The notes beneath the pieces were generated by a model. That model searched no databases. It saw only the letters and a list, made by a program, of their open reading frames with translations, and was not told where the DNA came from. A DNA stretch of 53,464 nt, taken from assembly GCA_913009695.1 (NCBI GenBank), contig CAJVWV010000002.1:1-53464 (forward strand), written 5' to 3'. Below are positions 2,601-33,600 of this stretch, piece by piece (positions within the stretch are counted from its first letter, which is position 1; each line of letters opens with the position of its first letter). Source of the stretch: an uncultured bacterium. Its GTDB lineage: Bacteria; Patescibacteriota; Patescibacteriia; Patescibacteriales; SZUA-104. A program made the translations under genes and the position numbers.

Positions 2601-3293
2601 CTACTCCACCAACTCAATACTCTCAACAACAATATCTTTGATGGGATGATCATTTTCATTTTTTTCAACCGCCTCAATTTTGTCCACTACGTCCATTCCC
2701 TCCACAATTTCGCCGAAGTTAGTATGCCTTCCGTCAAGCCATGGAGTCGCCTCGCTTGTTACTATAAAAAACTGCGAGCCATTTGTGTTAGGGCCGGAGT
2801 TAGCCATAGCCATGCTGCCACGCACAAGCTTATGATTATTTATTTCGTCTTTAAACTTATAGTCCGGTCCACCCATGCCGTCATTTGACCAATCGTCGTC
2901 TTTAGAATTCGGATCGCCTCCCTGAATCATAAAATCCTTTATCACACGATGAAATTTCGTATTATCATAAAACCCATCTTGGGCTAAATTTAAAAAATTA
3001 TTAACAGTCAAAGGTGATTCCTCTCCATACAATTTAATCTTAATGTCTCCGAAATTAGTTTTAAGTATCACACCGGAATATTCCTTGACTAAATCTTTTA
3101 ATACAATTTCTTGTCCTCCTGAATCCCGAAGCTTCGGGACTAAAGACGAATCTTTTTGCCCTTGTGCTGAGCTTGTCAAAGTATCTGCCATGTTGTTTTT
3201 TCCTGTTTCATTATTAATTTCCTGATTTGCCTGTTCATGTGCGCATCCGGAAACTAACAAAGAAAACATAATTAAAAATAATAATTTTCGCAT
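2601..3293 (-). CDS. Cyclophilin-type peptidyl-prolyl isomerase, lipoprotein
   Basis: Lipobox LVSGC; FHRVIKDFMIQGGDP, AMANSGPNTNGSQFFI, WLDGRHTNFG. Confidence 0.93.
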   Translation of the reverse strand: MRKLLFLIMFSLLVSGCAHEQANQEINNETGKNNMADTLTSSAQGQKDSSLVPKLRDSGGQEIVLKDLVKEYSGVILKTNFGDIKIKLYGEESPLTVNNFLNLAQDGFYDNTKFHRVIKDFMIQGGDPNSKDDDWSNDGMGGPDYKFKDEINNHKLVRGSMAMANSGPNTNGSQFFIVTSEATPWLDGRHTNFGEIVEGMDVVDKIEAVEKNENDHPIKDIVVESIELVE

Positions 3294-3327
3294 AATTTTT
3301 TGTTATTTGTTATTTATAAATTAAGCC

Positions 3328-4835
3328 TAACGGCACATTTCGCAACGCGCTTTCGGCGTTTAGTTTCTTAAAAACTAATTTGATTGTATAATTACTGTAT
3401 GTCAGAAGCTGTAAATACAACTAGCAGTAAATACACAATCAAACAAATCTTCAAGGACAACTGGAATGATTTTTATGATCTAAATAAAGATAATATCCGC
3501 GATACTGTTGTTGAAAATGTAGACAGGATTATGGCTTGCGGAGACAAGAATAAACTGGGCTATGGAATGTATATGTGCCCGTCATGCGGTAACAGGCATT
3601 ATGTTGCCCATACCTGCAAATCCCGCTTCTACAATTCTTGCGGAAAAGTGATGACTGACAACTGGATTAACTGGGCGCAAGACAATATGTTAAATTGTCC
3701 CTATCATCATATCATATTCAGTCCGCCTTCGGAATTATGGCTTTTTTTTCGCGGCTAACCGCGATTGCCTGCATTTGCTGTTTAAGGCGGCATCACGCGC
3801 CATTATGTCTTGGTGCGAAGAAGAAGGGTTTGTTCCGGGAGTCGTTTCAGTTATGCATACATTCGGAGCTGTTCTGGACTTTCATCCTCATATCCATATA
3901 CTGCTTACCGAGGGAGGGGTTAGCGAGAATTCCAACTTTGATTTTTTAACCTGGCAAGAATGCAATTTCTTTCCGGAAAAAGTATTGAAAGAGCGGTTTA
4001 AATATTATTTGATTAAATATTTGCGTGAATGGGCTTGTAAAAATAAATTGTCTTTACCGTTGGAAATTAAACAAATTTGGAGGAATAAACTGAATTGCGA
4101 TAATCTTTACAATGCCACGCAGGAATTATATAAAATCATCTGGTATGTTCATATCGGGAAAAAACTTGAAAACGCTGAGTTTACCACCAAGTATATCGGC
4201 AGGTATACCAAACGGCCGTGCATTTCAGGGGCCAAAATTATTGGTTACGACCGAGAAAAGAAAACCGTTTCATTCAGATACAGGGACAAACATACTAACA
4301 CGGAAAAAACAGAGACAATGCCGGTAATGGAGTTTATCGGGCGGCTAGTCAGGCATATACCGGAGAAAAACTATCGGATGATCAGGTATTACGGAATATA
4401 TGCCAATTCGGTTAAAAACGAGCTTTGGGAATTGCTTGCTTATCAGATTTCAAAACTGTTTACTTTAGCTAAATTGATTTTCGCGCCGAAACGGATTTTA
4501 AACAGTTGGCGAGACAGGGTTATGTCTTCAACCGGATGCGATCCCTTGGTCTGTAAAAAATGCAATATACAGATGGAACTGACCGAGATAGGCCACCGGA
4601 TTAGAGACGGAATATTTAAAATTTATCCTGTTTTCAATTAACAATAATTCTTTTCTAAAAACTGTTTGTAAAAACGGCAGGGCATGTTAATGGCTGAATT
4701 CGATAATATCGCCTTGCGGACAACTTTTAAAAAATAATTTGTTTGATATTTTCTTTCTTTTCTACCTAGCGACCGAAAAATCAGAAATTTTAAAATTAAA
4801 TTTTTTGTTTTTGGGGATATTCAAATTCCTTAACG
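3328..4835 (+). mobile_element. IS91-family (rolling-circle) insertion sequence, ends approximate
   Basis: Encloses the transposase; TAACG at 3328-3332 and 4831-4835, with caaattcct just before the right copy; opposite strand to both flanking genes. Confidence 0.55.
3399..4641 (+). pseudogene. IS91-family HUH/Y2 transposase split by a frameshift in a T8 run
   Basis: Zn-binding part (CPSCG...HTCKSRFYNSCG) in 3384..3758; HPHIH and KYIGRY in 3775..4641; deleting one T in 3742-3749 gives WLFFAANRDCLHLLFKAA and fuses both. Confidence 0.85.
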
Positions 4836-7644: not shown

Positions 7645-8862
7645 ATGGAAATATTTAAATTACCCAAAAAATCCCCCCTACCCCCCTTTACTAAAGGGGG
7701 CAAAATTATATTAGCTCTCGGCGCTGAATCAGCCGGCAATTTTTCGGTTTTTCCAGCTCCCCCTTTATTAAAGGGGGTTGGGGGTATTTATTTCTCCGAA
7801 GATTTTGGTGATCTTTTAGATGATAAAAATTATAAAAAATTTCAAAAAGCTGTTTTAGATTTTTTAAAAAAGAATAAACTAAAGCCGAATATAATTTTAA
7901 CCGACTTGCATCCCGAATATAAAACTACACTTTGGGGAAAGGAGTTAAGCAAAAAATTTAAGGCGAAACATATTCAAGTTCAACATCATATCGCGCATAT
8001 TTTCTCAGCAGTCGGGGAAAAAGGAACCGAGTTCCCTATAGGGAACTCGGTTCCTTTCACCGGCATAGCTCTTGACGGCACCGGCTACGGATTGGACGGC
8101 AATATATGGGGCGGAGAAATTTTCTATATCTCCCCCTTGATAAAGGGGGTTGGGGGGATTAAAAGAATTGGACACTTGGAAAATCAAACTATGATCGGAG
8201 GAGATTTAGCGATTAAAGAACCTGCTCGTATGCTATTAGCCATTCTGGCTAAAATTAAAAATTACGAATTAAAAATTAAGAATAATAAAGAATTTATTTA
8301 TAGTTTTGTTAAAAAATACTATTCTAAAAACCAATTTGAATTATTGTATAATCAGCTTGAGCAAAATTTTAACTGCGTGGAAACTTCCAGCGCCGGAAGA
8401 ATCTTAGACGCGGTTTCAGTGTTATTGGGATTTTGCGGAAATAAAAGAAACTACAAACACGAGCCGATTGATCTGCTTGAAAAAAATTCCACCAAACCAT
8501 TTGAAATAAACTCAAAACTCAAAACTCAAAACTCAAAACTTATTTTAGATACAATATATTTATTTGAATATTTAATTAAAAATTTGCATAAAAACAAACG
8601 CCGTCTCGCCGCCACGGCGCAACTTTATATCGCGCAAGGTATGTATAAAATAACTAAAAGCTATAAGCTAAAAGCTATAAGCTGTTATTTATCCGGTGGC
8701 ATCGCCAACAACAAAATCATCTCGTCATATTTAGAATCCAAAGGCGCGATTGCCAATAAAAAAGTCCCGCGCGGCGATGCGGGACTGAGTTTCGGACAAA
8801 TTATTTTTTATTTAATGGAAGAAACCATTAAAACATCAGCAACAACAGTTCCTTCTCCGTAA
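7645..8862 (+). CDS. HypF-like carbamoyltransferase, C-terminal Kae1-like domain only
   Basis: DLHPEY, VQHHIAH, LDGTGYGLDGNIWGGE, TSSAGRILDA, SGG, GDAGLSFGQ; no acylphosphatase, Zn-finger or YrdC part. Confidence 0.85.
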   Translation: MEIFKLPKKSPLPPFTKGGKIILALGAESAGNFSVFPAPPLLKGVGGIYFSEDFGDLLDDKNYKKFQKAVLDFLKKNKLKPNIILTDLHPEYKTTLWGKELSKKFKAKHIQVQHHIAHIFSAVGEKGTEFPIGNSVPFTGIALDGTGYGLDGNIWGGEIFYISPLIKGVGGIKRIGHLENQTMIGGDLAIKEPARMLLAILAKIKNYELKIKNNKEFIYSFVKKYYSKNQFELLYNQLEQNFNCVETSSAGRILDAVSVLLGFCGNKRNYKHEPIDLLEKNSTKPFEINSKLKTQNSKLILDTIYLFEYLIKNLHKNKRRLAATAQLYIAQGMYKITKSYKLKAISCYLSGGIANNKIISSYLESKGAIANKKVPRGDAGLSFGQIIFYLMEETIKTSATTVPSP

Positions 8863-9533: not shown

Positions 9534-10550
9534 TTAGCATATCCTCGGAATAAGCTTCCCCTTCGGCATTTCAATCGGCCTTAAACTCCCTAAATTTGTC
9601 TTTAAAAATACGCCACTGCCTTTTTCGGCGATTCCAACCACTTTAGCATCTTTATTAAAATTTTTCAAGATCTTTAAAGCCCTATTAACATTATTACCTG
9701 AAACAGCGGCAATAAACCTTCCTTCTGACGCTAAAGAAAAAATATCAATTCCCAATAATTCCGATATGGCTGTAGTTTCTTTTTTGTATGGTAAATTATC
9801 TTCGTCTAATACTATTTTCACTTTTGACTTCTCGGCCATTTCCACTAAATTCGCGGACAGTCCGCCACGAGTCGGATCTTTACAGGCGTTTAAATATTTA
9901 CCAACTTTTTCCAATTCTTTATTCAAAGGTTTTGAGTCACTTTTAATTTTTGTTTTGTAATTAAATCTTTTAGATAAAAGCGCGACCGCGTGCTCGCCCA
10001 AATCTCCAGAAGCGATAATTACATCCCCTATTTTAATTCCATTATTAGGAATTATTTTTTTAGCTATTCCAACACCGGAGGTTGTAATTTCAATTTTATC
10101 AATCTTTCCTTTCTCGGTTACCTTTGTATCTCCGGTTACGACCGGTACGCCGGATTCTTGAGATATTTTATTTATAGAAGAAATAATTTTCATTAAATCT
10201 TTTTTTAAAAAACCCTCCTCTATTACTATGCTTAAAGAAATGCCCAAAGGCTTCGCTCCCATAACCGCTAAATCATTTATAGTACCGCACATGGCAATTT
10301 TTCCTATATCTCCTCCGGAAAAAAATATCGGATCAACAATAAAAGCATCAGTCGTGAAAACCAACCTATTGCCTCCTCTCCTTGCTAAGGAGAGAATTGA
10401 GGTGAGGTCTAAAATAGCCGCGTCATCTTCACAGTTCTGCCACTTTCCTTTGTACTTCAATATGCCACGAATATCTTTTAATAGTTCCCATGATTTATAT
10501 CCACCGCCACCATGATCTAATTCAATTGTTTGTTTTTTATCTTGATTCAT
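9534..10550 (-). CDS. hypE: Hydrogenase maturation protein HypE
   Basis: HGGGG, FTTDAF, GTINDLAVMGA, TGDTKV, DPTRGGL and C-terminal PRIC; start set at ATG 10550. Confidence 0.93.
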   Translation of the reverse strand: MNQDKKQTIELDHGGGGYKSWELLKDIRGILKYKGKWQNCEDDAAILDLTSILSLARRGGNRLVFTTDAFIVDPIFFSGGDIGKIAMCGTINDLAVMGAKPLGISLSIVIEEGFLKKDLMKIISSINKISQESGVPVVTGDTKVTEKGKIDKIEITTSGVGIAKKIIPNNGIKIGDVIIASGDLGEHAVALLSKRFNYKTKIKSDSKPLNKELEKVGKYLNACKDPTRGGLSANLVEMAEKSKVKIVLDEDNLPYKKETTAISELLGIDIFSLASEGRFIAAVSGNNVNRALKILKNFNKDAKVVGIAEKGSGVFLKTNLGSLRPIEMPKGKLIPRIC

Positions 10551-12053: not shown

Positions 12054-12145
12054 ACTTCTACCGACTTTTACGGGTTCGCGCGGCTTTAGTCCCGAAGCTT
12101 CGGGATTAAAACCTGCCACACCCTGAGCTAAGGCTCGGTAGAAAT
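12054..12145. repeat. Composite palindromic repeat (TTCTACCGAG family with nested CCCGAAGCTTCGGG element)
   Basis: cttctaccga...tcggtagaa ends; reverse complement resembles 30014-30058; nested 24-mer 12084-12107 is the exact reverse complement of 3122-3145. Confidence 0.75.
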
Positions 12146-13654: not shown

Positions 13655-13987
13655 TGTTATCATTCCTGCAAAGCCCTCACCCGCCATCGCTCCGCTCGGC
13701 ACCCTCTCCCGCGACAAGCCGCAGGAGAGGGATTGTATGAAAATAATATTTTATTATATATTATAATTTAATAATATTTTAGCCAAATTAAATATGTTAT
13801 TAAACATCTAAACTTTTAAACCAGTTCCCTCTCCCGCGACGCTAGGAGTGGGAGAGGGTCAGGGTGAGGGCTTGGAAGGACGGGATTAAACAAAACGAAC
13901 ATTGCTTTCTATAAACTATCGTTTAATAACAACATTATTACAAATTAACCATAGATTCCGGATAAGCTTCGCTTTCCGGAATGACAA
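13655..13987. repeat. Nested REP-like elements
   Basis: ccctcaccc...ccctctcccgcgac...ggagaggg (13674-13731) and ccctctcccgcgac...gggagagggtcagggtgaggg (13827-13870) inside tcattcctgc (13660) ... attccgga...tccggaatgaca (13955-13986). Confidence 0.7.
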
Positions 13988-13994
13988 ACAACAT

Positions 13995-14573
13995 ATGATC
14001 CTAGGAATAAAAGAACTGCATAAATTAGTTAAAGAAAAAAATTTAGTTGAAAATCTTTGCGAGCGCGAACAAAACAATCCTGAGGGTGCTGGTTTCGATT
14101 TGCGTTTAGGAGAAATTTATGAATTAGAGGGAGACGGTTTTTTAGGCGTAGAAGAACGAGATACACCAAATATAAATCTTATAGCAAAAAACGAAGAAGG
14201 TGGGGATGGAAAACCCTCCTCCGCTGAAGCTACGGCGGGCAAGGAAAATAGCTTTGTTTTTGAGCCTAGAAAATACTATTTAATTAAAACAATGGAAAAA
14301 GTAAATTTACCGACTACCTTGTCAGGAATAATTTTTCCACGCACTACCCTATTTAGATCCGGTCTAGCATTATTTAACGGCATTGTTCAGCCCGGTTACT
14401 CAGGCGAACTTACTTTTGGAATAAGCAACTTAGGAAAATCAAATATTCGCGTTTCTTTCGGAGCTCGCGTAGTTCATATTACCTTTCACGAAGTTCTTGG
14501 AGAAGGCAACCAATACCGGGGGCAATGGCAGGGCGGACGAGTAGCGACCGAGGAAAAAGAAACTCAGGTGTAA
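13995..14573 (+). CDS. dCTP deaminase / trimeric dUTPase family protein
   Basis: GAGFDLRLG, PRTTLFRSG, VQPGYSGEL, YRGQWQG; start set at ATG 13995. Confidence 0.85.
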   Translation: MILGIKELHKLVKEKNLVENLCEREQNNPEGAGFDLRLGEIYELEGDGFLGVEERDTPNINLIAKNEEGGDGKPSSAEATAGKENSFVFEPRKYYLIKTMEKVNLPTTLSGIIFPRTTLFRSGLALFNGIVQPGYSGELTFGISNLGKSNIRVSFGARVVHITFHEVLGEGNQYRGQWQGGRVATEEKETQV

Positions 14574-17280: not shown

Positions 17281-18465
17281 ATGTTTTTCTTTAGAAATAA
17301 AATTAAATCAAATAATCTAAATAAAAAATCCCGCCCTGCCTGCCCGCCTTCTTGGAGAGAGCGTAGTCGAAGGGGGAGGTTTATTGTTATTGACGGAACT
17401 GACGGATCCGGAAAAGCTACGCAAACAAAATTATTAGCCCAAAAATTGGAACGAACCGGTTTTGACGTTAAAATAGCCGACTTTCCACAATACGGACAAA
17501 AATCCGCGGGTTTAATTAAAGAATATTTAAATGGAAAGTACGGAGAAGCTGATACAGTTAATCCCTACCACGCTTCTATCTTTTTTGCCTGTGATCGGTA
17601 TGACGCCAGTTTTAAAATAAAAAAATGGCTTAATGAGGGTAGTATTGTAATCTCTGATCGTTACGTAACCGCTAATATGGGACATCAAGGCGGAAAAATA
17701 AAAGATTCGCTTGAACGCAAAGTTTTTTTTGAATGGCTTTATAAGCTTGAGTATGAACTTTTTGAAATACCAAAACCTGATTTAAATATAATTTTACATG
17801 TAGAAACTAACATAGCGCAAAAATTAGTAAACCACAGGGGAAACAAAAAAGATATTCATGAAAAAAATGAAAAGCACCTCGTTAACGCGGAAAAAACTTA
17901 TTTAGAAATTACTAAAACTTTTCCAAATCTTACTTTAATTAAATGCACGGAAAATGGAGAAATAATGACTCGAGACAAAATAAACGATCTTATTTTAGAA
18001 GAAGTTTTAAAATTAATTATTAATAAAGATGAGCAACCCAAGCCTCAGCTTAAAGTTAAGCGGCTAACCAACACTGCTAAAATTCCGCAAAGAGCGCGTA
18101 GCAAGGACGCGGGCATTGATATTTATGCCGACGATAATTATACTTTATTTCCGGGAGACATAGCTAAAGTTAAGACCGGGATTAAATTGCAAATTCCGGA
18201 AGGCCACGCGGGATTAATCTGGGATAAAAGCGGAATAGCCAGACAGAGAATCCACGTAATCGGAGGCGTTATTGATTCAAACTATCGCGGAGAAATTATT
18301 ATACTTATCAAAAACTTATCTGAAGATATTTTTAATATTTCTCGCGGGCAAAAAATAGCTCAAATCTTAATCCAAAAAATTGAAACGCCTAAAATAACTG
18401 AAAATTATATAAACGATGAAACGGAAAGAGGTGAAAATGAATTTGGTAATAATGGACTTTTTTAG
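17281..18465 (+). CDS. tmk: Thymidylate kinase - dUTPase fusion
   Basis: N-half IDGTDGSGKATQ, SDRY, PDL; C-half DAGIDI, DKSG, GVIDSNYRGEI, KIAQ in one frame. Confidence 0.9.
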   Translation: MFFFRNKIKSNNLNKKSRPACPPSWRERSRRGRFIVIDGTDGSGKATQTKLLAQKLERTGFDVKIADFPQYGQKSAGLIKEYLNGKYGEADTVNPYHASIFFACDRYDASFKIKKWLNEGSIVISDRYVTANMGHQGGKIKDSLERKVFFEWLYKLEYELFEIPKPDLNIILHVETNIAQKLVNHRGNKKDIHEKNEKHLVNAEKTYLEITKTFPNLTLIKCTENGEIMTRDKINDLILEEVLKLIINKDEQPKPQLKVKRLTNTAKIPQRARSKDAGIDIYADDNYTLFPGDIAKVKTGIKLQIPEGHAGLIWDKSGIARQRIHVIGGVIDSNYRGEIIILIKNLSEDIFNISRGQKIAQILIQKIETPKITENYINDETERGENEFGNNGLF

Positions 18466-19523: not shown

Positions 19524-21068
19524 ATGACATACGATGTAATTATCGGCCTTGAAATACACGCCGAACTAAAAACTAAATCTAAGATGTTTTGCTCTTGCGA
19601 TAACGATGCCGAGGGAAAAGAGCCAAACACTGTTGTCTGCCCTATTTGCATGGGACATCCGGGAACTCTGCCGGTCGCCAATAAGCAGGCCATTGAATGG
19701 ACGGTTTTAACCGGCCTTGCTTTAAATTGCAAAATTAATAAACTAAGCAAATTTGATAGAAAAAATTATTTTTATCCTGACTTGCCTAAAGGTTATCAAA
19801 TTTCGCAATACGACCTACCGCTTGTTTACGGCGGACATTTAGAGATTAACGGAAAATCAGTTGACATAACAAGAATTCACCTTGAAGAAGATACTGGAAA
19901 GTTAACGCACCCATCCTTCGCTAAAGCTTCGGCGGACAAGCCAAATAACAAAAAATATTCTTTAGCCGACTATAATAGGGCCGGCACTCCGTTAATGGAG
20001 CTAGTTACCGAGCCGGTTATTAAAACGGCCGAAGAAGCAAAAAAATTCTGCCAAAAATATCAACAAATTCTTCGATATCTAAATATATCTGACGCTGACA
20101 TGGAAAAAGGACAAATGCGATGCGAAGCAAACGTCAGTGTGCAGAAAAAAGGAAAATGGAAATACGAAGACGGAGAAATTAAACCTATTGGAAATCCCGA
20201 AGTTTCGGGATTAAATCCGAAAGTAGAAATAAAAAATATTAACTCGTTTAAGGCAGTAGAAAAAGCAACCGACTTTGAAATAAAAAGACAAATTGATGCG
20301 ATTGAAGACGAAGAAAAACTCGTACAAGAAACTCGCGGTTGGAACGAAGACAAAGGAGAAACCGTAAGCCAAAGAATAAAAGAAACTTCTGCCGACTACC
20401 GATATTTTCCTGAACCCGATATACCACCTCTCAATATTGATGCAAAATGGATTAAACAAATTCAATCCCAATTAGTTGAGTTACCGACTGAAAAAAAGAA
20501 AAGATTTATTGAACAATACAGCTTAAATGATGAAGACGCGGAAATATTAGTTAGCGATAAAAATTTAGCTGATTATACTGAAAAAGTTATTACTGAATTA
20601 AGATCATGGATTGATTCAACCGGAGACGGCTGGGAAAGACAAAAAAAGAAGCTGGCAAAAGCCGCCGCTAACTGGTTAATTCATGAATTATTTAAACATT
20701 TAAGGGAAGATAATTTAAGTATTAAAGATATTAAAATTACACCGGAAAATTTCGCCGAATTAATCACCCTAGTTTATCAAGAAAAAATAAATTCTTCAGC
20801 CGGTACAAAGATTCTTGAGGTTATGCATAAAAATGGCGGTGATCCAACGCAAGTTATGGTTGAGCTTGGGCTAGAACAAATGGACAACACAAAAGAACTA
20901 GAAAATATTATTAAAAAAATATTAAAGAAAAATCAACTCCAGGTTGAAGAATATAAAAGCGGAAAAGAAAATGTTTTACAATTTTTTGTAGGTCAAGCTA
21001 TGGCCGCTACAAAGGGCAAGGCAAATCCTAAAAAAGTACAGGAATTACTTAAAAAATTGTTAAAATAA
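19524..21068 (+). CDS. gatB: Asp-tRNA(Asn)/Glu-tRNA(Gln) amidotransferase subunit B
   Basis: IGLEIHAEL, FDRKNYFYPDLPKGYQISQ, HLEEDTGK, DYRYFPEPD. Confidence 0.97.
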   Translation: MTYDVIIGLEIHAELKTKSKMFCSCDNDAEGKEPNTVVCPICMGHPGTLPVANKQAIEWTVLTGLALNCKINKLSKFDRKNYFYPDLPKGYQISQYDLPLVYGGHLEINGKSVDITRIHLEEDTGKLTHPSFAKASADKPNNKKYSLADYNRAGTPLMELVTEPVIKTAEEAKKFCQKYQQILRYLNISDADMEKGQMRCEANVSVQKKGKWKYEDGEIKPIGNPEVSGLNPKVEIKNINSFKAVEKATDFEIKRQIDAIEDEEKLVQETRGWNEDKGETVSQRIKETSADYRYFPEPDIPPLNIDAKWIKQIQSQLVELPTEKKKRFIEQYSLNDEDAEILVSDKNLADYTEKVITELRSWIDSTGDGWERQKKKLAKAAANWLIHELFKHLREDNLSIKDIKITPENFAELITLVYQEKINSSAGTKILEVMHKNGGDPTQVMVELGLEQMDNTKELENIIKKILKKNQLQVEEYKSGKENVLQFFVGQAMAATKGKANPKKVQELLKKLLK

Positions 21069-21126: not shown

Positions 21127-22140
21127 TTACATCAGATTTTTTTTATTTTTTAAAAATTTTTTAATATATTTTTCCGCTTCAGTTTTATTTTTTACCCACT
21201 TAATTCTTTTATCTCTCTTAAACCAAGTCATTTGCCGTTTAGAGAACTGCCGAATAGCAATATATAATTTTTCAACCATCTCCTCGTAAGTCAACTTTTT
21301 ACGCAAATACAAAGAAATATATTTATATTCTAAGCCAAATTCTTCTAATCTTTTCCAACTCACCTCCCCCTTGCGCAAACGCTTAACCTCTCCAATCATA
21401 TTTTCTTTTTCCAATCTCTCTATCAATCTTTTATAAATTCTCTTTTGTAATACATCTCGGGAATAAGTAAGACCTAATAATAAAAAATCAAATTGTTTAA
21501 ATGATTGCTTTGGTTTGTGGCTATTCGTGTCTTTATTCGTGGCTATTCGTGTTTGTTCTATATAACGTATTAATCTTCGCTTATTTTTTCTATCGCTTTC
21601 ATTTAAACTTTTTGCTTTTTTAGAGTTCAACTTTTTTAGTTTTAAAAAAAGCTTATCAACAGTCATTTTTTCTAATTTTTCACGTAATTTTTTATCAGGT
21701 TTAGCGCTTGATAATTTATATTCGTCAACAATCGCCTGAATATATAATCCCGTTCCGCCGACTATAATCGGCGTTTTTCCCCGCGCCAAAATATCGTCAA
21801 TAGCCTTATACGCTAATTTTTGATATTTAGCTAAATTAAATTCTGTTTTAGGACTAATAATATCAATAAGATGGTATGGCACATTAACGACTTTTGACTT
21901 TTGCTTGCCCGCCAAAGCTTTAGTGACGGCGGGACCTTTGACTTTCGACTTAATTTTATATTCTTTTAAGTCTTTACCCGTTCCTATGTCCATGCCACGA
22001 TAAACCTGTCTTGAGTCAGCCGAAATTATCTCACCATTAAATTTATTGGCAAGCTTAACAGCCATACTTGTCTTTCCACTAGCTGTTGTTCCCAGCACAA
22101 CGACAATTTTTTTATTATTAATTCGTAATTCGTAATTCAT
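21127..22140 (-). CDS. miaA: tRNA dimethylallyltransferase
   Basis: GTTASGKT, ISADSRQVYRGMDIGTGK, VGGTGLY, KRQMTWF. Confidence 0.95.
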   Translation of the reverse strand: MNYELRINNKKIVVVLGTTASGKTSMAVKLANKFNGEIISADSRQVYRGMDIGTGKDLKEYKIKSKVKGPAVTKALAGKQKSKVVNVPYHLIDIISPKTEFNLAKYQKLAYKAIDDILARGKTPIIVGGTGLYIQAIVDEYKLSSAKPDKKLREKLEKMTVDKLFLKLKKLNSKKAKSLNESDRKNKRRLIRYIEQTRIATNKDTNSHKPKQSFKQFDFLLLGLTYSRDVLQKRIYKRLIERLEKENMIGEVKRLRKGEVSWKRLEEFGLEYKYISLYLRKKLTYEEMVEKLYIAIRQFSKRQMTWFKRDKRIKWVKNKTEAEKYIKKFLKNKKNLM

Positions 22141-22145: not shown

Positions 22146-23507
22146 TTAATTTATTATCTCGCCTTCCAATCCAAAATCTTTTGCTTTTTTTATTTTAACT
22201 TTAATAAATTCACCTAACAACGCTTCTCCATTAATCCTTACATTTTTATACGTTCTTGTTTTGCCGAACCAATCTCCCTTTTTATTTTTCCCTTCAATTA
22301 ATACATCAACTATTTTGTTTAAATATTTTTTATTTTCTTCTAAGGCTGTTTTTTTTACTATTTTCACTAACGCCTCTTCTCTTCTCTTTTTTTCTTTTTG
22401 AGTAACATCATTATCCATTTTGGCTGATATTGTGCCCGCGCGAGGGCTATATTGCGATATATAAGCTAAATAAAATTTTATTTCTTTAAGTAATCTAATT
22501 GTTTGATTAAACTGCTCTTCTGTTTCTCCCGGAAAGCCAACAATAATATCAGTCGTAATACAAACATTAGAAACCGCTTTTCTAATTTTTTTAATTAAAT
22601 TAATATAATGCTCTCTAGTATATTTTCTATTCATTTCTCTTAATATTTCGTTATCACCGGATTGTACTGGAAGATGAATATGTTCGCACACCTTTCCCGC
22701 CCCTCGGAGCTTTGGCGAAGCGGGGACGCATTCAGCCACAGCCTTAATTAATTCATCACTCATGTCTTTGGGATGGCTAGTAGAAAATCTAATCCAAAAA
22801 TCACCGGGAATATCATTTACCATCCTTAATAAATCGGGAAATTTAATTAATTTAAAATCTTCATTTTCTTTTTTATTCGTAATTCGTAATTCGTAATTCG
22901 TAATTTTTGCCCTATAGCTATTTACGTTTTGCGCAATCAAAGTAATTTCTTTATAACCCTTTTTCACTAATTTTTTAACTTCTTCCAGAATCTCTAAAGC
23001 ATCCCTGTATGTTTCTCTGCCCCGAGCATGCGGAACAACGCAATAAGCGCAAAAATTATCGCATCCATTGCCGATAGGCACAAAAGCGCTAAACTTTGAA
23101 TTATATTTAGGATTTATTGCCAAATAACCGCTCAAACTATTATTTTCGATTTTTTCTAGACCAAGTTTATATGCTAAAGAATCCAATTCCGTAATTGGCA
23201 TCCAAATATCAACATATCCATTCAACCGCCTTTGCACATCTTTTCTCTGCGATAAACATCCGGTTAAAACAATCTTTATTTTAGGATTATTTTTTTTAAG
23301 TCTATAAATTAGGCTGTAAGCTCTGTTTTCCGCTGACTGCTTAACTCCACAGGTCGTAACCACGACTAAAACCGCTTTATCTTTATTTTCAGATAAAACA
23401 TATCCATGTTTTTCCAAATAACCGGCAATTCTCTCAGAATCACTCTTGTTCATTTGGCAACCAATTGTTATAATGTGATATAATTTTTTCTTCATTATTT
23501 TATTCAT
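22146..23507 (-). CDS. miaB: tRNA-i6A37 methylthiotransferase (radical SAM)
   Basis: GCQMNKSDSE, CDNFCAYC, HLPVQSG, DIIVGFPGETEE, TRAM-like C-terminus; adjacent to miaA. Confidence 0.9.
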   Translation of the reverse strand: MNKIMKKKLYHIITIGCQMNKSDSERIAGYLEKHGYVLSENKDKAVLVVVTTCGVKQSAENRAYSLIYRLKKNNPKIKIVLTGCLSQRKDVQRRLNGYVDIWMPITELDSLAYKLGLEKIENNSLSGYLAINPKYNSKFSAFVPIGNGCDNFCAYCVVPHARGRETYRDALEILEEVKKLVKKGYKEITLIAQNVNSYRAKITNYELRITNKKENEDFKLIKFPDLLRMVNDIPGDFWIRFSTSHPKDMSDELIKAVAECVPASPKLRGAGKVCEHIHLPVQSGDNEILREMNRKYTREHYINLIKKIRKAVSNVCITTDIIVGFPGETEEQFNQTIRLLKEIKFYLAYISQYSPRAGTISAKMDNDVTQKEKKRREEALVKIVKKTALEENKKYLNKIVDVLIEGKNKKGDWFGKTRTYKNVRINGEALLGEFIKVKIKKAKDFGLEGEIIN

Positions 23508-27589: not shown

Positions 27590-27786
27590 ATTTTAAAACC
27601 CCGCCTCAATGCATCAATAAAAATACTGATACACTAGGACGGGGTCTAAACCTCGTGGTTCCACCTAGTTTCCCATCCCCAATTTCTTAAACTCGGACTG
27701 GACACTCTTGATTTATCCTCAGACTTAGTCCCGAATACTCGGGGTGTTATGTAACATCGCGGTTGGTGGCCGCAACAATCACCTTT
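27590..27786 (-). promoter_or_regulatory. T-box riboswitch of thrS
   Basis: Minus-strand AACTAGGTGGAACCACG T-box motif, terminator ACCCCGTC...GGCGGGGTTTT, upstream hairpin GCGG-CCACCAA-CCGC containing the Thr codon ACC. Confidence 0.85.
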
Positions 27787-27792
27787 AGATAA

Positions 27793-29136: not shown

Positions 29137-29181
29137 ATTTTATTTTAATTTAAAAATTTAGCGGTGTATTGCGCGTATTTT

Positions 29182-29523
29182 TTAAGATTCCTTTAATAAC
29201 TCTAAAATATGCTTCTCAAAAATTGGCAAATCATCTTTTATTGTTTTCCATAATATATCTTCATCAACGCCAAAATATTCATGAGTCACTTTATTTCTCA
29301 TGCTTACGGCTTCACTCCACGCAATGTCAGAATTTTCTGATTTTATATTTTCTGGCATATTCTTTGATGCTTCTCCGATTATCGTTAAGTTTCTAACAAT
29401 AGCGTCAATTATTAAAGTGTTTTTACGAAATTCGTCAAAATCCATACCTGCCACATATCTCTCTATTCTCTCAATAGACTGCTTAATGTCTTCTAAATAT
29501 AATTTTGCTCCTCTTTTAGACAT
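29182..29523 (-). CDS. HEPN-domain (DUF86/HepT-like) ribonuclease toxin
   Basis: RNKVTHEYFGVD (R-x4-H-x-Y), IIGEA. Confidence 0.9.
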   Translation of the reverse strand: MSKRGAKLYLEDIKQSIERIERYVAGMDFDEFRKNTLIIDAIVRNLTIIGEASKNMPENIKSENSDIAWSEAVSMRNKVTHEYFGVDEDILWKTIKDDLPIFEKHILELLKES

Positions 29524-29806
29524 AAATAACTTCCTTAAGAATATCTTTTTTTATAGCCTGCTTAATGGCCTTTTTTGAAACTAAATCAACTTTTTTACGC
29601 AAAGTTTTGCTTAAAAAATTTTCCAACCTGATGAAATCAAAAAATCCTATGGGAGAACTGAATTCCACCAATATATCTATATCGCTTCCTTTCGCCTGTT
29701 TATCCCTAACAACAGAACCAAAAATCCCCATTTTTTTTACATGGTATTTATCTTTCAAAAAAGGAAGCTGAATATTTATTTTTTCTTTTATTTCCTGTTT
29801 GTCCAT
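29516..29806 (-). CDS. Minimal nucleotidyltransferase (MntA-like) antitoxin
   Basis: FGSVVR...SDIDILVEF, KVDLV; overlaps the HEPN start. Confidence 0.9.
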   Translation of the reverse strand: MDKQEIKEKINIQLPFLKDKYHVKKMGIFGSVVRDKQAKGSDIDILVEFSSPIGFFDFIRLENFLSKTLRKKVDLVSKKAIKQAIKKDILKEVIYV

Positions 29807-29839
29807 ATAATTTTTATATTTTAATCACGTAAGCCCCAC

Positions 29840-30062
29840 AACTTCCATCGAGTTTTAGCTCGGGTCTAGGCGGCTTTAACCGCATCTCTAATATACTTCG
29901 CCGCGGCAGAATCTCTCCGCAGAGGATTCTGCCGTTTTCCTCCGATAATACGGCTATTTTATAATGAGATGGTTACAAAAGTCTCTTTCGCAACGAAAGC
30001 TTTCCTACTCCCACTTCTACCGAGCTTTAGCTCAGGGTATAGGCGGCTTTAGCCGCCATCCA
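29840..30062. repeat. Two diverged direct copies of a palindromic repeat with an intervening hairpin
   Basis: acttccatcgagttttagctcgggtctaggcggctttaaccgc (about 29841) and acttctaccgagctttagctcagggtataggcggctttagccgcc (about 30013); cggcagaatc...gattctgccg between. Confidence 0.7.
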
Positions 30063-30082
30063 AACGAGCGTTAAAAATAAAA

Positions 30083-30586
30083 TTATTCTGGTAATTTATT
30101 TTTTATAGCTTCTATTTCAATCAACTCTTTTACCTTTTTCCTTAAACCGCAGCTTCTTGTAATATGATTTATAGTTTTTTCTTCGCCTGCCACCTCGCTA
30201 ATTAATTTTATAAGTTCGTCTGATTTAAAAACTCGCCCTTCGGATGCTTCAACTTCTATGTTATTGTTTTTAATCTTAAAATACAAATCATCCAAGCTCT
30301 GCGGCTCGCTTATGTATCGTTCGTTTCTTATTTCGTTTTTATATTTTTCAATATCTTCATCTGTCAATTCTTCTTGGGATCCTGTCTTTTCTTGATGTAG
30401 CTCTGAAGCTTTGGTTTTTATTATTTTATTCATTGTATCTACTTTCTTATCTCTTTTCTCAAATTCATACCTTTCTTGATTAGATGAGGCTTGATATATT
30501 TCATCTTTAAGTTTTTTTATTTTTTCTTCTTAATTTTGTTCGGGATTAACGTGGGTGTTCATTATGCCCAATTCTAAATTACTCAT
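30083..30586 (-). pseudogene. Charged hypothetical protein with in-frame TAA
   Basis: ATG 30586 is in frame with ORF 30083..30433; single TAA at 30530-30532 (...NPEQN*EEKIKK...). Confidence 0.5.
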
Positions 30587-30668
30587 AGTTTTGTGTGGCA
30601 AATAAATTGCCAAAATTATTAGTTAATTATTAAATGTTTCCACCACCCTTATTATAATAAATATTTAC

Positions 30669-33600
30669 CTATTTGTCCACAACCGTCACAACCCCGCCCA
30701 ACGCTCCCCTTATAGCTCCCACAAGCGAATCATTATGATTAACTCTAAAACTCGTTTCAATTATTTTATTGCCCTCGCCCTCTTTAACCTTAAAATACAC
30801 CTTACAATCGCCGGAATGCTCTACGAACATTTCTCTTAATTTATTAAGCGTAATTTCGTCAAGTTCTTTGTTGAAAATTATCTTAAGAGGCGGGTTATTA
30901 TTTATGTTCTTTTTTATGGCGTTATTAACGTTTACCGCCGGCTCAGCTTTTTTCGGAGCATAATTATTAAATTGCCCGTTTCTTCTGCCGTCAAAAACCT
31001 GAATGGCCTTAAAACGCTTTATAGAATTTTCAACATTGTCTAATGTTAATTCTACAGCCTTATTGGCTAATAATTTTATTTCCTGATCTTTATCTGAAAT
31101 TTTTCCCTGGCAAAGAACAACCTTCCCTTCCACCCATATTAATTCTGTTTCTTTTAACATCCTTGGAAAAACTAAAACTTCTATGCTCTTAACAGAGTCT
31201 TCAATTTTTACGAAAAGCATTTGTTCATTTTTGCGGGTCATAATTTTTTTTACGCCGGTAATCACGCCCGCTACGTTTACATCCTCTTTTGGCTTATCAA
31301 CTGACAATTCTGACAATGGAATAGCAACGCCGTCTAAATAATTCTTAAAATCAGTTAACGGATGCTCGGTAATATATACTCCGAGCAGTTCTTTTTCCCA
31401 TGATAAAATTTCCTGCTTCGTAGCTTTAGGCGCAGGCGCTAATTTTATTTTATGTTCAATATTTAAAACAGGCGCGCCCGCGAAAAGGCTGGTTTGTCCA
31501 TTATTTTGCGAAGCGCTAATTTCTTTACTGAATTGAAGTATGTTTTCCATGTTGCCTAAAATTTGCCCTCTTTCCGAAAATTTATCTAATGCCCCGCTCT
31601 TAGTAAGGCTTTCTAACGATTTCTTGTTTAGATCCTTATCATTAATTCTTTCCAAGAAATCAGTAATATCTTTGAATGCTCCATTTTCTTTACGTTCTTC
31701 AATAATTACCTCAGCAATATTCTCGCCAACATTTTTAATAGCTCTTAACCCGAAACGAATTGTATTAATTTTTTCTTCTTTGCCGACAACTTCATTTTTT
31801 TCCGTGCCGGTTGTAACAGCGGTAAAAGAACCAAACGACTGGTTTATATCCGGACTTTTTACTTCAATACCCATTTTACGGCACTCTTCAATTTCCACCG
31901 CTATTCTATCTATGTTTTGCTGATCCGCGGTTAATAGCGCCGCCATAAATTCTGTCGGCCAACGCGCTTTTAAATACGCGGTCTGATAACCAATAAGCGC
32001 GTAACAAGCGGCATGCGAACGGTTAAATCCGTATCCGGCGAACGGCTCAATAAATGAAAATATTTTTTCAGCCAGCATGCTATTTATTCCGTTTTTAACA
32101 CATCCGTCAATAAACTTTTCTTTTTGTTCAACTAATAATTTTACAATTTTCTTTCCCACCGCTTTACGTAAAACATCAGCCTCAGCCATAGTAAATCCGG
32201 CTAAATCACGAGCCATCTGCATGACCTGCTCCTGATAAATCGCGACCCCGTAAGTCTTTTTTAAAATCGGTTCTAATTTCTCGTGTAAATATTTTGGTTT
32301 TTTTCTGCCATGTTTTCCGGCAATATAATCAGGGATCCATTCCATCGGACCGGGCCGATACAAAGCCACCATAGCGATAATATCTTCAAAGTCGGTCGGC
32401 TTTAACTCACGCATATATCGTTTCATTCCCGAGGACTCAAACTGAAACACGCCAGTAGTCTCCCCTTTTTGAAATAACTTATACGCTCTTTTATCATCCA
32501 AAGGAATCTTATCAATATCAATTTCTATTCCTCGGGTATTTTTTATAATTCTTATCGCCGACTCAATGATGGTTAAATTTTTAAGCCCTAAAAAATCCAT
32601 TTTTAATATTCCTAAATCCTCAGTCGGATGAAGGGAGTACTGCGAAACAATACTCTTGTCTGATGATGAAGCGAACTGCAATGGAACATATTCGTTTAAC
32701 GGATCTTTTGTAATTATAACTCCGCAGGCGTGCGTTGACGCGTGTCTAGCAACGCCTTCCAGTTTTCTGGCAAAATCTATTATTTTTTTTCCCGCGTCTT
32801 CTTTGTAAATTTCCTTTAATTCGGAAACGGTTTTAAGCGCTTCATCAATCTTAGTAAACATGGGAATCATCTTAGCCAGTTTATCGCAATAATCATAAGG
32901 ATAATCCAAAACACGGCCAACGTCCCTAACCGCGGCGCGCGCCGCCATTGTTCCAAAAGTAATAATTTGCGCTACATGGTCTTTGCCGTATTTTTCTTCA
33001 ACATATCTAATAACTTCATCGCGGCGAACATCGGCAAAATCCAAATCAATATCAGGCATAGAAATACGGTCAGGGTTCAAAAACCGCTCAAATAATAAAT
33101 CATATTTAAGCGGATCTAAATTAGTAATTCCCGTTAAATAGCAAACTAAGGAACCGGCGGCTGAACCGCGTCCGGGACCAACAACAATTCCGTTATCTTT
33201 TGCCCAATTTACAAAATCAGCCACAATTAAAAAATAAGACGGCCACCCCATTTTTTTAATTACCTCAAGCTCAAAATCCAGCCTTTTTTTAACGTCTTTC
33301 ATTAGTTGATCAGAAATCCCCCTTGCCCCCTTTAATAAAGGGGGAGATTCTTGATAGCTCCCCCCTTTAGTAAAGGGGGGTTGGGGGGATTTTTGACCGT
33401 GCTCTCCATACCTTTTCTCTATCCCTTCTTCACACCATTTTCTAAGTAAGCTGTTTCCGTCTTCGCCTTTTGGCACTTCAAAATGCGGAAGCTGAATATT
33501 GCCTAACTCAATTTCTAGATTACATTTATCCGCGATTTTAATCGTATTTTCTATCGCCCCGGGCGCGTCCTTAAACGCTTCTATCATATCCCTTGCCGGA

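What the first reader, a model, noticed from the sequence alone, without database searches (positions are those of the whole stretch)
3122..33394. Several families of palindromic repeats inserted in frame into conserved proteins
Seen: GC-rich hairpins sit inside coding frames and add extra peptides: cyclophilin SLVPKLRDS (3122-3145), HypF (several), HypE LTSILSLARRGG (10375-10407), dcd PSSAEATAGK (14214-14243), tmk RPACPPSWRERSRRG (about 17328-17378), GatB PSFAKASADK (19911-19940) and NPEVSGL (20193-20212), MiaA PAVTKALAGK (21904-21933), MiaB PASPKLRGAG (22696-22725), DnaE KSPQPPFTKGG...SPPLLKGARGI (33314-33394). The same DNA families occur outside genes (12084-12107, 27725-27744, 34420-34452, 53273-53464) and are read in different frames, so the shared unit is DNA, not peptide. 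Established: Rickettsia palindromic elements are a precedent for coding-inserted repeats. Inference: multiple selfish short elements are colonising the loops of essential proteins at high density, with an unknown mobiliser.
Basis: partly seen in the sequence, partly recalled or inferred. Interest (0 to 1): 0.8.

Follow-up and report, generated by a model that had tools for sequence, protein, structure and literature searches.

The report
Hairpin repeats inserted inside protein genes
Short GC-rich hairpin DNA repeats are scattered through this very small bacterial genome, and many sit in frame inside essential genes, adding small loops to the proteins; this oddity is known from Rickettsia and a few other bacteria and is seen here in a candidate-phyla (Falkowbacteria-like) bacterium.

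Summary
11 of the 12 claimed coding inserts are real repeat copies. They lie at sites that are empty in at least one close orthologue where that could be judged. The tmk item is a unique GC-rich stretch with no hairpin, at or before the N-terminus.

The genome (0.94 Mb, about 35% GC) holds several families that shuffled controls never produce:
- F_A: 30 nt, 30 copies.
- F1: about 33 nt, 36-48 copies.
- F2: about 33 nt, 13-16 copies.
- F_B: hairpin of about 20 nt.

F_A, F1 and F2 lie in long ORFs about as often as chance placement predicts (70-85%). Each shows a strong orientation and frame bias in this genome. Three measurable F_A inserts are exactly +30 nt.

The genome also has seven matches to Y1 (RAYT/IS200) transposases. 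Three types of these genes are flanked by their own hairpin families, which are mostly extragenic. F_A, F1 and F2 have no adjacent transposase.

The F_A 22-nt core occurs in 53 of 101 genomes of the order and 24 of 301 of the phylum.

Verdict: these are REP/RPE-like elements, a new variant of a known kind. The mobiliser of the intragenic families is still unidentified.

The parts
3122..3145 (.). F_B hairpin (TCCCGAAGCTTCGGGA core) inside the cyclophilin gene (2601-3293, minus strand), in the N-terminal linker
   Evidence: D17, I21; z -2.6
7667..7700 (-). F1 copy in the HypF C-terminal-domain gene (7645-8862, +), read as KSPLPPFTKGG
   Evidence: (I4)
7757..7789 (+). F1 copy in the HypF-like gene, read as PAPPLLKGVGGI; +7 aa against G015 and G001
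   Evidence: (D15, I11)
8132..8160 (+). F1 copy in the HypF-like gene that replaces an ancestral segment of similar length (+1 aa)
   Evidence: (D15)
10375..10407 (+). F2 copy in the HypE-like gene (9534-10601, minus), read as LTSILSLARRG; the site is empty in G015 and holds a different palindrome in G001
   Evidence: z -3.4
12084..12107 (.). F_B copy between the L11 and L1 ribosomal protein genes
   Evidence: (D17, I21)
13665..13875 (.). Two composite GC-rich hairpins (CCCTCTCCC...GGGAGAGGG plus CCCTCACCC/GGGTGAGGG arms) in the intergenic region before dcd
14214..14243 (+). F_A copy (30 nt) in dcd, read as PSSAEATAGK; exactly +30 nt against G002
17328..17378 (+). GC-rich stretch at or before the N-terminus of the tmk-dut ORF; not a member of any repeat family
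   Evidence: z +1.0
19911..19940 (+). F_A copy in GatB (residues 130-139, PSFAKASADK); +30 nt; the same site is filled in 5 of 70 orthologues
20193..20212 (.). F_B hairpin in GatB (residues 224-230, NPEVSGL); 15 nt replace 6 nt
   Evidence: z -3.35
21904..21933 (-). F_A copy in MiaA (21127-22140, minus), read as PAVTKALAGK, in a region variable in all relatives
22696..22725 (-). F_A2 (stem variant of F_A) in MiaB, read in another frame as PASPKLRGAG; exactly +30 nt against 5 relatives
27725..27744 (.). F_B-like hairpin in an intergenic region
29904..29934 (.). F3 hairpin (CGGCAGAATC...GATTCTGCCG), the family that flanks a RAYT gene on contig C8; intergenic
33314..33394 (.). Inverted doublet of two F1 copies (REPIN-like, 81 nt) in DnaE (30669-34340, minus); extra ~24 aa absent from 5 relatives
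   Evidence: I4, I11; -27.6 kcal/mol, z -5.4
34420..34452 (+). F2 copy just upstream of dnaE, intergenic
   Evidence: z -3.8
53273..53464 (-). Tandem array of at least 6.4 units of the 30-nt F_A2 element, running off the contig end, upstream of a DUF4013 gene
   Evidence: (D1)

Best explanation
The window carries copies of at least four families of short GC-rich palindromic DNA repeats: F_A/F_A2 (30 nt), F1 (about 33 nt, also found as inverted doublets), F2 (about 33 nt) and F_B (hairpin of about 20 nt). They are dispersed through a 0.94-Mb, AT-rich, Falkowbacteria-like (Patescibacteria) genome.

I read them as REP/RPE-like elements that are copied as DNA to new sites. About three quarters of this genome is long ORFs, so most copies land in genes. 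The copies we see are the survivors: they keep the reading frame, contain no stop codon, and encode short Pro/Gly/Ser/Ala/Lys-rich peptides in loops or linkers of otherwise conserved proteins.

Shown:
- Repeat families exist that chance does not produce.
- The same families occur in genes and between genes.
- Orthologous sites are empty in close relatives.
- Three F_A insertions are exactly +30 nt.
- The F_A stem covaries.
- The F_A core is conserved at the DNA level across the order and phylum.
- Several RAYT-type HUH tyrosine-transposase genes are present, each flanked by its own hairpin family.

Inferred:
- F_A, F1 and F2 are mobilised, or once were. I put about 35% on a RAYT-like single-strand DNA enzyme acting in trans.
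- The orientation and frame bias is the imprint of purifying selection, possibly together with a strand-specific insertion step.
For: Families and chance:
- 30, 12, 48 and 16 copies of F_A, F_A2, F1 core and F2 core, against 0 each in a shuffled genome.
- 589 GC-rich perfect hairpins against 87 in a shuffle.

The repeated unit is DNA:
- 9 of 30 F_A, 9 of 36 F1 and 2 of 13 F2 copies lie outside ORFs of at least 150 aa.
- F_A stem covariation gives 224 of 300 Watson-Crick cells, against a shuffle mean of 200.6 (sd 4.3, maximum 215 in 2000 shuffles).
- In 81 metagenome copies, position 1 pairs with position 26 as C-G 43 times, T-A 33 times and otherwise 5 times.
- Elsewhere the same element is read in other frames or in none. 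Of 46 copies in 11 other genomes of the phylum: 15 same orientation frame 0, 5 same frame 2, 10 opposite frame 2, 2 opposite frame 0, 1 opposite frame 1, and 13 in no ORF. 80 metagenome copies show a similar spread.
- F1-like sites in four other genomes (36 pattern hits; both strands of a few palindromes were each counted): 13 same orientation, 8 opposite, 15 in no ORF.

Empty versus filled sites. Of the window's inserts, only GatB site 1 is shared with a same-family relative (G001).

Loops: in the GatB model (mean pLDDT 82.8), insert 1 (residues 130-139) lies between strands 111-128 and 147-149, where 10-residue pLDDT means are 53-62. Insert 2 (residues 224-230) lies between strands 218-221 and 234-239.

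Folding: F1, F2 and F_B copies fold with z -2.5 to -3.8, and the DnaE doublet with z -5.4.

Enzymes:
- PF01797 gives 7 matches in the genome, 5 over the cut-off.
- The NCBIfam model 'REP-associated tyrosine transposase' scores 110.7 bits (cut-off 80) for C13:15041-15580 and 78.7 for C8:2115-2735.
- These genes are flanked by their own hairpin families: F3 with a CGTC tag, a GTAG-tagged family, and F8 with an F_B-like hairpin.

Spread:
- F_A core in 53 of 101 genomes of the order and 24 of 301 of the phylum, reversed-pattern controls 0.
- F1 core is patchy, in 18 of 101 genomes, with bursts of 48, 33 and 32 copies.

Precedent: intragenic REPs, including one in DnaE, are reported in PMC3733652 (passages read).
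Against: - No transposase lies next to F_A, F1 or F2 in this 80%-complete assembly. None of the 29 Y1 loci fetched from relatives has flanking hairpins of these families; the pattern scan found only one F2-tail match, in L169.
- F_A, F1 and F2 lack the GTAG/CGTC tag.
- They are not extragenic, unlike the RAYT-flanking families in the same genome: F3 1 of 20, GTAG family 0 of 16, F8 6 of 31 in ORFs.
- Four relatives hold F_A, and G056 and G057 hold F1, without any PF01797 match. G057 (97% complete) has 13 F_A and 12 F1 copies.
- No target-site duplication or conserved target was seen, and some copies replace sequence rather than insert.
- The window's own F_A copies fold no better than shuffles (z -1.5 to +0.25).
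- The bias of 20 of 21 copies in one frame, when 4 of 6 frames are open, is stronger than selection against stop codons alone explains.
- Intergenic copies tend to share the majority orientation (11 of 14).
- No polymorphic empty allele was seen in the public contigs that could be laid. Those are contigs, which cannot show absence.
Confidence: 0.65

Rival explanations
1. There is no dedicated mobiliser. F_A, F1 and F2 spread by copy-choice: replication template switching, or short-patch gene conversion between copies primed by microhomology. GC-rich hairpins stall forks in an AT-rich genome, and that favours such events.
For: - Some copies replace ancestral sequence of similar length instead of adding to it (HypF site 3 and GatB site 2).
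- There is no target-site duplication and no conserved 5' target.
- About half of 80 metagenome copies are followed by CCNG/CCCGCC, which repeats the element's own first bases. The recurrently filled GatB site reads CAC CCN.
- No transposase is adjacent.
- Some genomes hold F_A and F1 but have no Y1 match.
Against: - Three F_A insertions are exact 30-nt units with clean edges, and the conserved block is exactly 30 columns. This looks like a defined cut-and-join unit.
- Presence of F_A goes with presence of Y1 transposases in 60 relatives (25 with and 4 without, against 15 and 16; Fisher p 0.0025). This is not corrected for kinship.
- Near-identical cores in distant genomes need either transfer or strong constraint.
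Confidence: 0.25
2. The sequences are kept by the host for a nucleic-acid function, such as a protein-binding site, an RNA or DNA structure, or an uptake signal. The peptides are a by-product.
For: - The 22-nt F_A core is conserved across the order and phylum, where host proteins are only 50-80% identical.
- The stem covaries.
- Orientation relative to transcription is biased even for intergenic copies (11 of 14).
Against: - Copy numbers are low and patchy: 0 to 19 F_A per genome, absent from 48 of 101 genomes of the order, and F1 in only 18 of 101.
- Sites are not conserved between close relatives.
- Density is far below the roughly one per kb that I recall for uptake sequences.
- Orientation preference differs between genomes for F1.
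Confidence: 0.08
3. The unit is a peptide: a selected P-S-x-A-K-A-S-A-G-K-type linker or tag motif. DNA similarity follows from codon preference.
For: - In G000, 20 of 21 intragenic F_A copies use one frame.
- At GatB site 1, five genomes keep a P-x-x-A-K-x-S-A-x-K-like peptide while the DNA has diverged. The G015 copy has lost most of the hairpin.
Against: - 9 of 30 copies lie outside long ORFs.
- Other genomes read the same DNA as LPAEALAKAG or PPSLKLRRA.
- Amino acids change so as to keep the stem: CCATCC/GGATGG, CCCTCC/GGAGGG, TCCGCC/GGCGGA, TCCACC/GGTGGA.
- An identical 22-mer recurs at synonymous positions across a phylum.
Confidence: 0.04
4. It is an assembly or amplification artefact. 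The assembly is poorly trimmed, with sequencing adapters at contig ends.
For: The 13-mer read here as an Illumina adapter (name from recall) stands at 40 places, all within about 180 bases of contig ends. Contigs break at the repeats.
Against: - The inserts keep long conserved genes in frame.
- A 2683-nt contig of run X1 spans the GatB site 2 and MiaA copies and ends inside the MiaB copy (20045-22727), with 2 differences. That run may be the source sample.
- The same families occur in dozens of independent genomes and in at least 120 metagenome contigs.
- There is no adapter sequence in the window.
Confidence: 0.01

Closest known systems
Rickettsia palindromic elements (RPEs)
   Same: Both are palindromic repeats found between genes and, in frame, inside conserved genes whose orthologues lack them. 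The added peptides sit in tolerated regions. Both occur in a small, AT-rich, host-dependent genome. The precedent is cited in PMC3733652 (passages read).
   Different: The units here are 20-33 nt (81 nt as a doublet). The classic RPE-1 is about 100-150 bp by my recall. The sequences are unrelated and the phylum differs. One family (F_A) is shared across a whole phylum rather than one genus.
Intragenic GTAG/CGTC-tagged REPs (Di Nocera et al. 2013, PMC3733652)
   Same: Both are REP-sized hairpins of 20-40 nt, found as singles and dimers inside known genes, often genes of replication and repair and including DnaE. They encode 20-30 aa as dimers, and N-terminal cases may be non-coding (passages read). 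The DnaE doublet and the doubtful tmk case here match this picture.
   Different: In that paper most REPs are extragenic. Here F_A, F1 and F2 are 70-85% intragenic, carry no GTAG/CGTC tag and have no flanking RAYT. The paper's supplementary table of intragenic REPs could not be seen.
REP/REPIN-RAYT systems
   Same: The genome has RAYT-type Y1 transposase genes flanked by their own hairpins in inverted arrangement. F3 carries a CGTC tag and a second family carries GTAG. Both are mostly extragenic and occur as doublets. F1 also forms REPIN-like inverted doublets.
   Different: RAYTs are described as typically single-copy (abstracts listed). Here there are 5-7 matches of at least four types in 0.94 Mb. 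The families that invade genes are not the ones that flank the RAYTs.
Mobile GC clusters of yeast mitochondrial DNA (recalled; no paper read here)
   Same: Both are short GC-rich palindromes spreading in a very AT-rich genome, sometimes within coding sequence.
   Different: Those are in an organelle, the sequences are unrelated, and the mechanism there is also unsettled. This is a resemblance from memory only.

Membership tests
REP/REPIN-RAYT | Short (20-40 nt) imperfect palindrome in many dispersed copies | tested here: met
   F_A 30, F1 36-48, F2 13-16 and F_B-type 36 copies, against 0 in shuffles for the four patterns tested. Hairpin folds for F1, F2 and F_B give z -2.5 to -3.8.
REP/REPIN-RAYT | Conserved GTAG or CGTC tetranucleotide at the foot of the hairpin | tested here: not met
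   The F_A, F1 and F2 consensus blocks carry no such tag at either end. The tag is met only by F3 (CGTC in most copies) and by the family around the C13 RAYT (GTAG).
REP/REPIN-RAYT | A RAYT gene flanked by copies of the family | tested here: not met
   Not met for F_A, F1 or F2: none flanks any of the 7 Y1 matches. One F_A array lies about 440 nt from the C13 gene. Met for F3 (C8, C4), for F8 with an F_B-like hairpin (C6, C4) and for the GTAG family (C13). The assembly is 79.7% complete, so a missing gene is possible.
REP/REPIN-RAYT | Predominantly extragenic location | tested here: not met
   F_A 21 of 30, F1 27 of 36 and F2 11 of 13 lie inside ORFs of at least 150 aa, which cover 75.5% of the genome. 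F3 is 1 of 20 and the GTAG family 0 of 16. The ORFs are my own greedy calls, not a curated annotation.
REP/REPIN-RAYT | Inverted doublets (REPINs) as the larger unit | tested here: met
   The F1 doublet in DnaE (81 nt) folds at -27.6 kcal/mol, z -5.4. Further close F1 pairs stand on C1, C3, C8, C13 and C34. GTAG-family doublets stand beside the C13 RAYT.
Rickettsia palindromic elements | In-frame presence in conserved ORFs whose orthologues lack the segment | tested here: met
   GatB, MiaB, dcd, DnaE, HypE and HypF against up to 11 orthologues.
Rickettsia palindromic elements | Sequence membership in the RPE-1 to RPE-8 consensus families, and length of roughly 100-150 bp for RPE-1 | not tested
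The units here are 20-33 nt, which by my recall does not fit RPE-1. The organism belongs to another phylum.
MITE derived from a DDE insertion sequence | Terminal inverted repeats matching an IS in the genome, and target-site duplication | tested here: not met
   The three exact +30-nt F_A insertions show no consistent duplication. The only DDE transposase seen (window 46999-48522) has ends reading TTGACTTCAAAC, unrelated to any family.
DNA uptake sequences | One short motif at about one copy per kb, in both orientations | tested here: not met
   There are several unrelated motifs, each with 13-48 copies in 939 kb, and they are absent from many relatives. The density criterion is recalled.
CRISPR array | Repeats separated by unique spacers | tested here: not met
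   The array at 53273-53464 is head-to-tail 30-nt units with no spacers (D1).

The most novel reading that the evidence does not exclude
F_A is a 'coding-adapted' element. It is a defined 30-nt (10-codon) hairpin module, open in four of six frames, that inserts as an exact in-frame cassette into protein loops. Its core is kept nearly identical across the whole Patescibacteria phylum and perhaps beyond: an exact 22-mer also stands in a 70%-GC contig beside a Pseudomonadota-like transporter gene. It would be spread by a mechanism that is not the classical REP-RAYT one, either an unrecognised single-strand DNA enzyme or hairpin-driven copy-choice. On this reading it would be a widespread natural generator of small loop insertions in essential proteins of ultra-small bacteria.
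Probability: 0.2. Interest if true: 0.8.

Novelty: new variant of a known kind. Interest (0 to 1): 0.6.

Why it matters
- Candidate-phyla bacteria are known for odd insertions in rRNA genes and for divergent proteins. This finding gives a concrete, testable source for many small protein insertions: short hairpin repeats that turn over between close relatives.
- One tiny genome offers a natural comparison. Its classical RAYT-flanked REP families stay between genes, while its orphan families sit mostly inside genes. That makes it a good place to ask what decides whether a repeat can live in coding sequence.
- It is also a practical warning. These elements break assemblies, inflate apparent protein divergence and can mislead alignments and trees of marker genes such as GatB and DnaE.
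- I found nothing on this in the searchable literature. That rests on four searches: searches returned no paper on the subject, and one search returned none at all.

Tried and rejected
- Public reads: three DNA runs of one study hold the stretch, as Logan contigs only, and no RNA holder is listed. When laid on 13900-33500 they showed no joint that skips an insert. Contigs end at the repeats (22869-22907, 29905-29934, 33314-33394). Contigs cannot show absence, so this says nothing about polymorphism or expression.
- Rfam at gathering thresholds found only LOOT RNA and two tRNAs in the window, and no family for the repeats.
- Mobiliser hunt:
  - Multi-copy proteins of the genome are pilus or secretion components, response regulators, Bro-N and AAA proteins, not transposases.
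  - The window's DDE transposase has unrelated ends.
  - Y1 loci of relatives carry their own hairpins, none of them F_A, F1 or F2.
  - A thrice-repeated block next to F1 in G069 proved to be a repeated 5' gene fragment, not a mobile gene.
  - TnpB and other transposase families were not searched.
- Vectors: the F_A 22-mer has 1 exact match in 2.9 million viral contigs. A 30-nt copy has no match in 72,556 plasmids.
- Cross-phylum spread rests on one high-GC contig and an automatic look-alike search. It is a lead only.
- Tree of GatB site 1: two scripts failed to label the filled rows because of my own threshold slip. One search gave 5 changes on a quick tree, with at least 2 forced by well-supported branches, and all 5 filled rows inside one 26-row clade. 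The one-clade test did not finish. Whether the site was hit repeatedly or filled once and lost often stays open.
- Length as a multiple of three holds firmly only for F_A (30 nt). F1 and F2 block edges are fuzzy, so I dropped that claim for them.
- Supplementary tables of PMC3733652 (the list of intragenic REPs) are closed and may bear on how unusual the intragenic share is.

Full report
**What the window is.** The window is contig C2 of a 939,234-base, 43-contig assembly that is 79.7% complete. GC content is 0.31-0.41. GatB relatives at 79-80% identity are titled Candidatus Falkowbacteria or Patescibacteria, so this is a candidate-phyla bacterium with a genome of about 1 Mb. The ORF at 5671-7128 is a CCA/poly(A) polymerase-type enzyme, not HypF.

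- F_A (CCNCCNNNCGCNNAAGCNNNGGCGGNCAAG, up to 3 mismatches): 30 matches.
- F_A2, its stem variant: 12 matches.
- F1 core: 48 matches.
- F2 core: 16 matches.

57 of 649 ORFs of at least 150 aa carry at least one copy. The ORFs are my own greedy calls. The F_A2 count includes the six tandem units at the window's end, which are probably not coding.

**Empty versus filled sites.** I compared orthologues from two same-family genomes (G001, G002) and three same-order genomes (G015, G027, G006), plus more for GatB.
- GatB site 1 is an exact +30 nt. It is also filled in G001 and G015, and empty in G002 and eight others.
- GatB site 2 replaces 6 nt by 15 nt, in G000 only.
- MiaB is an exact +30 nt, in G000 only of six.
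- dcd is an exact +30 nt against G002.
- DnaE carries an 81-nt inverted F1 doublet (about 24 extra aa), in G000 only of six.
- HypE has +9 aa against G015. G001 carries a different palindrome with a 12-bp stem in the same loop.
- HypF has three F1 copies, one of which replaces a segment of equal size.
- The cyclophilin copy is in the variable N-terminal linker.
- The MiaA copy is in a region that differs in every relative.
- The tmk element fails. It has no other copy and no fold (z +1.0), and it lies before the conserved start region.

An AlphaFold model of GatB (mean pLDDT 82.8) puts both inserts in loops between strands, with lowered confidence.

**DNA or peptide?** In this genome the families are strikingly non-random relative to genes.

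| Family | Copies in ORFs of at least 150 aa | Orientation split | Commonest reading |
|---|---|---|---|
| F_A | 21 of 30 | 21 to 0 | 20 of 21 read P-S-x-A-K-A-S-A-G/D-K |
| F1 | 27 of 36 | 23 to 4 | 19 read KSPQPPFTKGG |
| F2 | 11 of 13 | 10 to 1 | spread over three frames |

By my hand arithmetic on these counts, the two-sided binomial p values for orientation are about 1e-6, 3e-4 and 0.012.

The unit is nevertheless DNA, for these reasons:
- A quarter of the copies lie outside long ORFs.
- The F_A stem covaries. Watson-Crick cells number 224 of 300, against a shuffle mean of 200.6 (sd 4.3) and a maximum of 215 in 2000 shuffles. Arm pairs include CCATCC/GGATGG, CCCTCC/GGAGGG, TCCGCC/GGCGGA and TCCACC/GGTGGA.
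- In 81 metagenome copies, positions 1 and 26 read C-G 43 times, T-A 33 times and otherwise 5 times. This may also reflect two subfamilies.
- Other genomes read the same DNA differently. Of 46 F_A copies from 11 genomes elsewhere in the phylum: 15 same orientation frame 0, 5 same frame 2, 10 opposite frame 2, 2 opposite frame 0, 1 opposite frame 1, and 13 in no ORF. 80 metagenome copies behave likewise.
- F1 in four other genomes is 13 same orientation, 8 opposite and 15 in no ORF (both strands of a few palindromes were each counted).

Intergenic copies with co-directional neighbours mostly share the majority orientation (11 of 14). This hints at a strand-specific step or an RNA-level effect, which I cannot separate.

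**Distribution.**
- The F_A 22-nt core (up to 2 mismatches) occurs in 53 of 101 genomes of the order, at 1-19 copies, with G000 the highest.
- With up to 1 mismatch it occurs in 24 of 301 genomes sampled across the phylum.
- As an exact 22-mer it occurs in at least 120 metagenome contigs with GC from 0.31 to 0.70.
- Reversed-pattern controls are 0 in every genome of the order and phylum searches.
- One 70%-GC contig carries it beside a transporter gene whose look-alikes are mostly Pseudomonadota. This is a lead only.
- It has 1 match in viral contigs and none in plasmids.
- The F1 core is patchy, in 18 of 101 genomes, with bursts of 48 (G000), 33, 32, 16 and 12 copies in different families of the order.
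- In 540 kb of relatives' GatB loci the families are rare: F_A 2, F1 1, F2 3.
- Of the window's inserts, only GatB site 1 is shared with a same-family relative, so most copies are young or easily lost.
- GatB site 1 is filled in 5 of 70 orthologues, all within one well-supported 26-row clade. A quick tree needs 5 changes, and at least 2 are forced by strongly supported branches.

**Candidate enzymes.** PF01797 (Y1_Tnp) gives 7 matches in the genome, 5 over the cut-off. It matches in 41 of 61 genomes of the order. NCBI's 'REP-associated tyrosine transposase' model scores 110.7 bits (cut-off 80) for C13:15041-15580 and 78.7 for C8:2115-2735. Three further ORFs score 39-57. The genes have these neighbours:
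- The C8 gene and its truncated copy on C4 are flanked by F3 hairpins, mostly CGTC-tagged. One F3 copy sits in frame inside the C8 gene itself.
- The C13 gene is flanked by GTAG-tagged hairpins in inverted doublets.
- The decayed genes on C6 and C4 are flanked by a composite (F8) whose hairpin differs from F_B by one loop base.

These RAYT-flanking families are mostly extragenic: F3 1 of 20, GTAG family 0 of 16, F8 6 of 31 and F_B-type 8 of 36 in ORFs. This is what classical REPs do. F_A, F1 and F2 behave otherwise. They have no tag and no adjacent transposase, and their share in ORFs matches what the coding fraction (75.5%) predicts for unbiased placement. Across 60 relatives, F_A presence goes with Y1 presence (25 with and 4 without, against 15 and 16; Fisher p 0.0025, uncorrected for kinship). 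Yet G057 has 13 F_A and 12 F1 copies and no Y1 match.

**Mechanism.** Shown: these are dispersed DNA repeats with hairpin potential, with turnover at orthologous sites and with reading frames kept. Inferred: copies arise by a cut-and-join or copy-choice process, and only those that keep the frame and encode benign loop peptides persist. The clean 30-nt unit favours a defined enzymatic step (exact +30 in three of three measurable cases, and a conserved block of exactly 30 columns). Several findings favour microhomology-guided copying instead: replacement-type copies, the lack of target duplication, and the frequent CCNG/CCCGCC after the element, which echoes its own start. I rate a RAYT-like enzyme acting in trans at about one in three.

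**Comparison with the known.** In-frame palindromic repeats are established for Rickettsia RPEs. Intragenic GTAG/CGTC REPs, often in replication and repair genes including DnaE, are reported for several species in PMC3733652 (passages read; supplements closed). REPIN-RAYT biology is well described (abstracts listed). I found nothing on such elements in candidate-phyla bacteria and no paper that holds the F_A sequence or its peptide. These searches cover the held library only. The finding is therefore a new variant of a known kind. Its new points are:
- It occurs in a phylum where this has not been described.
- Classical RAYT-flanked extragenic REPs and orphan, mostly intragenic families coexist in one 0.94-Mb genome.
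- The 30-nt module is conserved phylum-wide.
- The frame and orientation bias is strong and lineage-specific.

Noticed in passing
G000 contig ends (for example C1:54745, C5:48, C7:74); none in the window: A 13-mer and longer strings that I recognise from memory as Illumina adapters stand at 40 places, all within about 180 bases of contig ends. The assembly was not adapter-trimmed.
   Followed up: partly
window 46896-48722: A 507-aa DDE_Tnp_1 transposase gene (46999-48522, minus) has ends reading TTGACTTCAAAC. It is bracketed by two perfectly identical 97-nt direct repeats (46896-46992 and 48626-48722), an unusually long duplication for an insertion sequence.
   Followed up: partly
window 22863-22907, 22109-22153, 8247-8292, 9485-9529: AT-rich 7-nt periodic repeats (AATTCGT-like) also sit in frame in MiaB (KITNYELRITNKK), at the MiaA start and in the HypF-like gene. 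Relatives have other low-complexity inserts at the same MiaB site. Word depth in run X1 rises to about 800 there, against about 10 nearby.
   Followed up: partly
G000 C8:2115-2735 and C4:19168-19530: A RAYT-like gene carries a copy of its own flanking F3 hairpin in frame (…RDSAATRMGDSAATD…). A second copy of the gene is truncated at the same place.
   Followed up: partly
L049 (G001 HypE orthologue): At the same HypE loop where G000 holds F2, G001 holds an unrelated palindrome with a perfect 12-bp stem (read SDFGEAKSDF). Some loops are therefore hit repeatedly by different elements.
   Followed up: no
G000, 13 loci (for example C1:6347-6394, C7:24929-24976): A family of nested palindromes has outer arms GAGATCCAATCTCC / GGAGATTGGATCTC enclosing variable inner hairpins. 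It lies mostly between convergent genes.
   Followed up: no
window 40476-40600 (minus): Rfam LOOT RNA match, 87 bits (gathering score 46.4).
   Followed up: no
window 23674-23727: A perfect tandem duplication of 27 nt lies inside the ORF 23658-25406.
   Followed up: no
window 12107-12143 and 30015-30051: A further 37-nt repeat (84% complementary pair) lies directly beside an F_B copy and near an F3 copy. Different families cluster together, as in BIME-like arrays.
   Followed up: no
window 17269-18465: Thymidylate kinase and dUTPase are fused in one ORF. The fusion is also present in relatives G001, G002 and G027.
   Followed up: no
L243 (metagenome contig, GC 0.70): An exact F_A 22-mer is nested between CTCTCCCCGCG and GCCGGGAGAGGG arms, upstream of an MFS transporter gene whose look-alikes are mostly Pseudomonadota. 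This may be a cross-phylum occurrence.
   Followed up: partly
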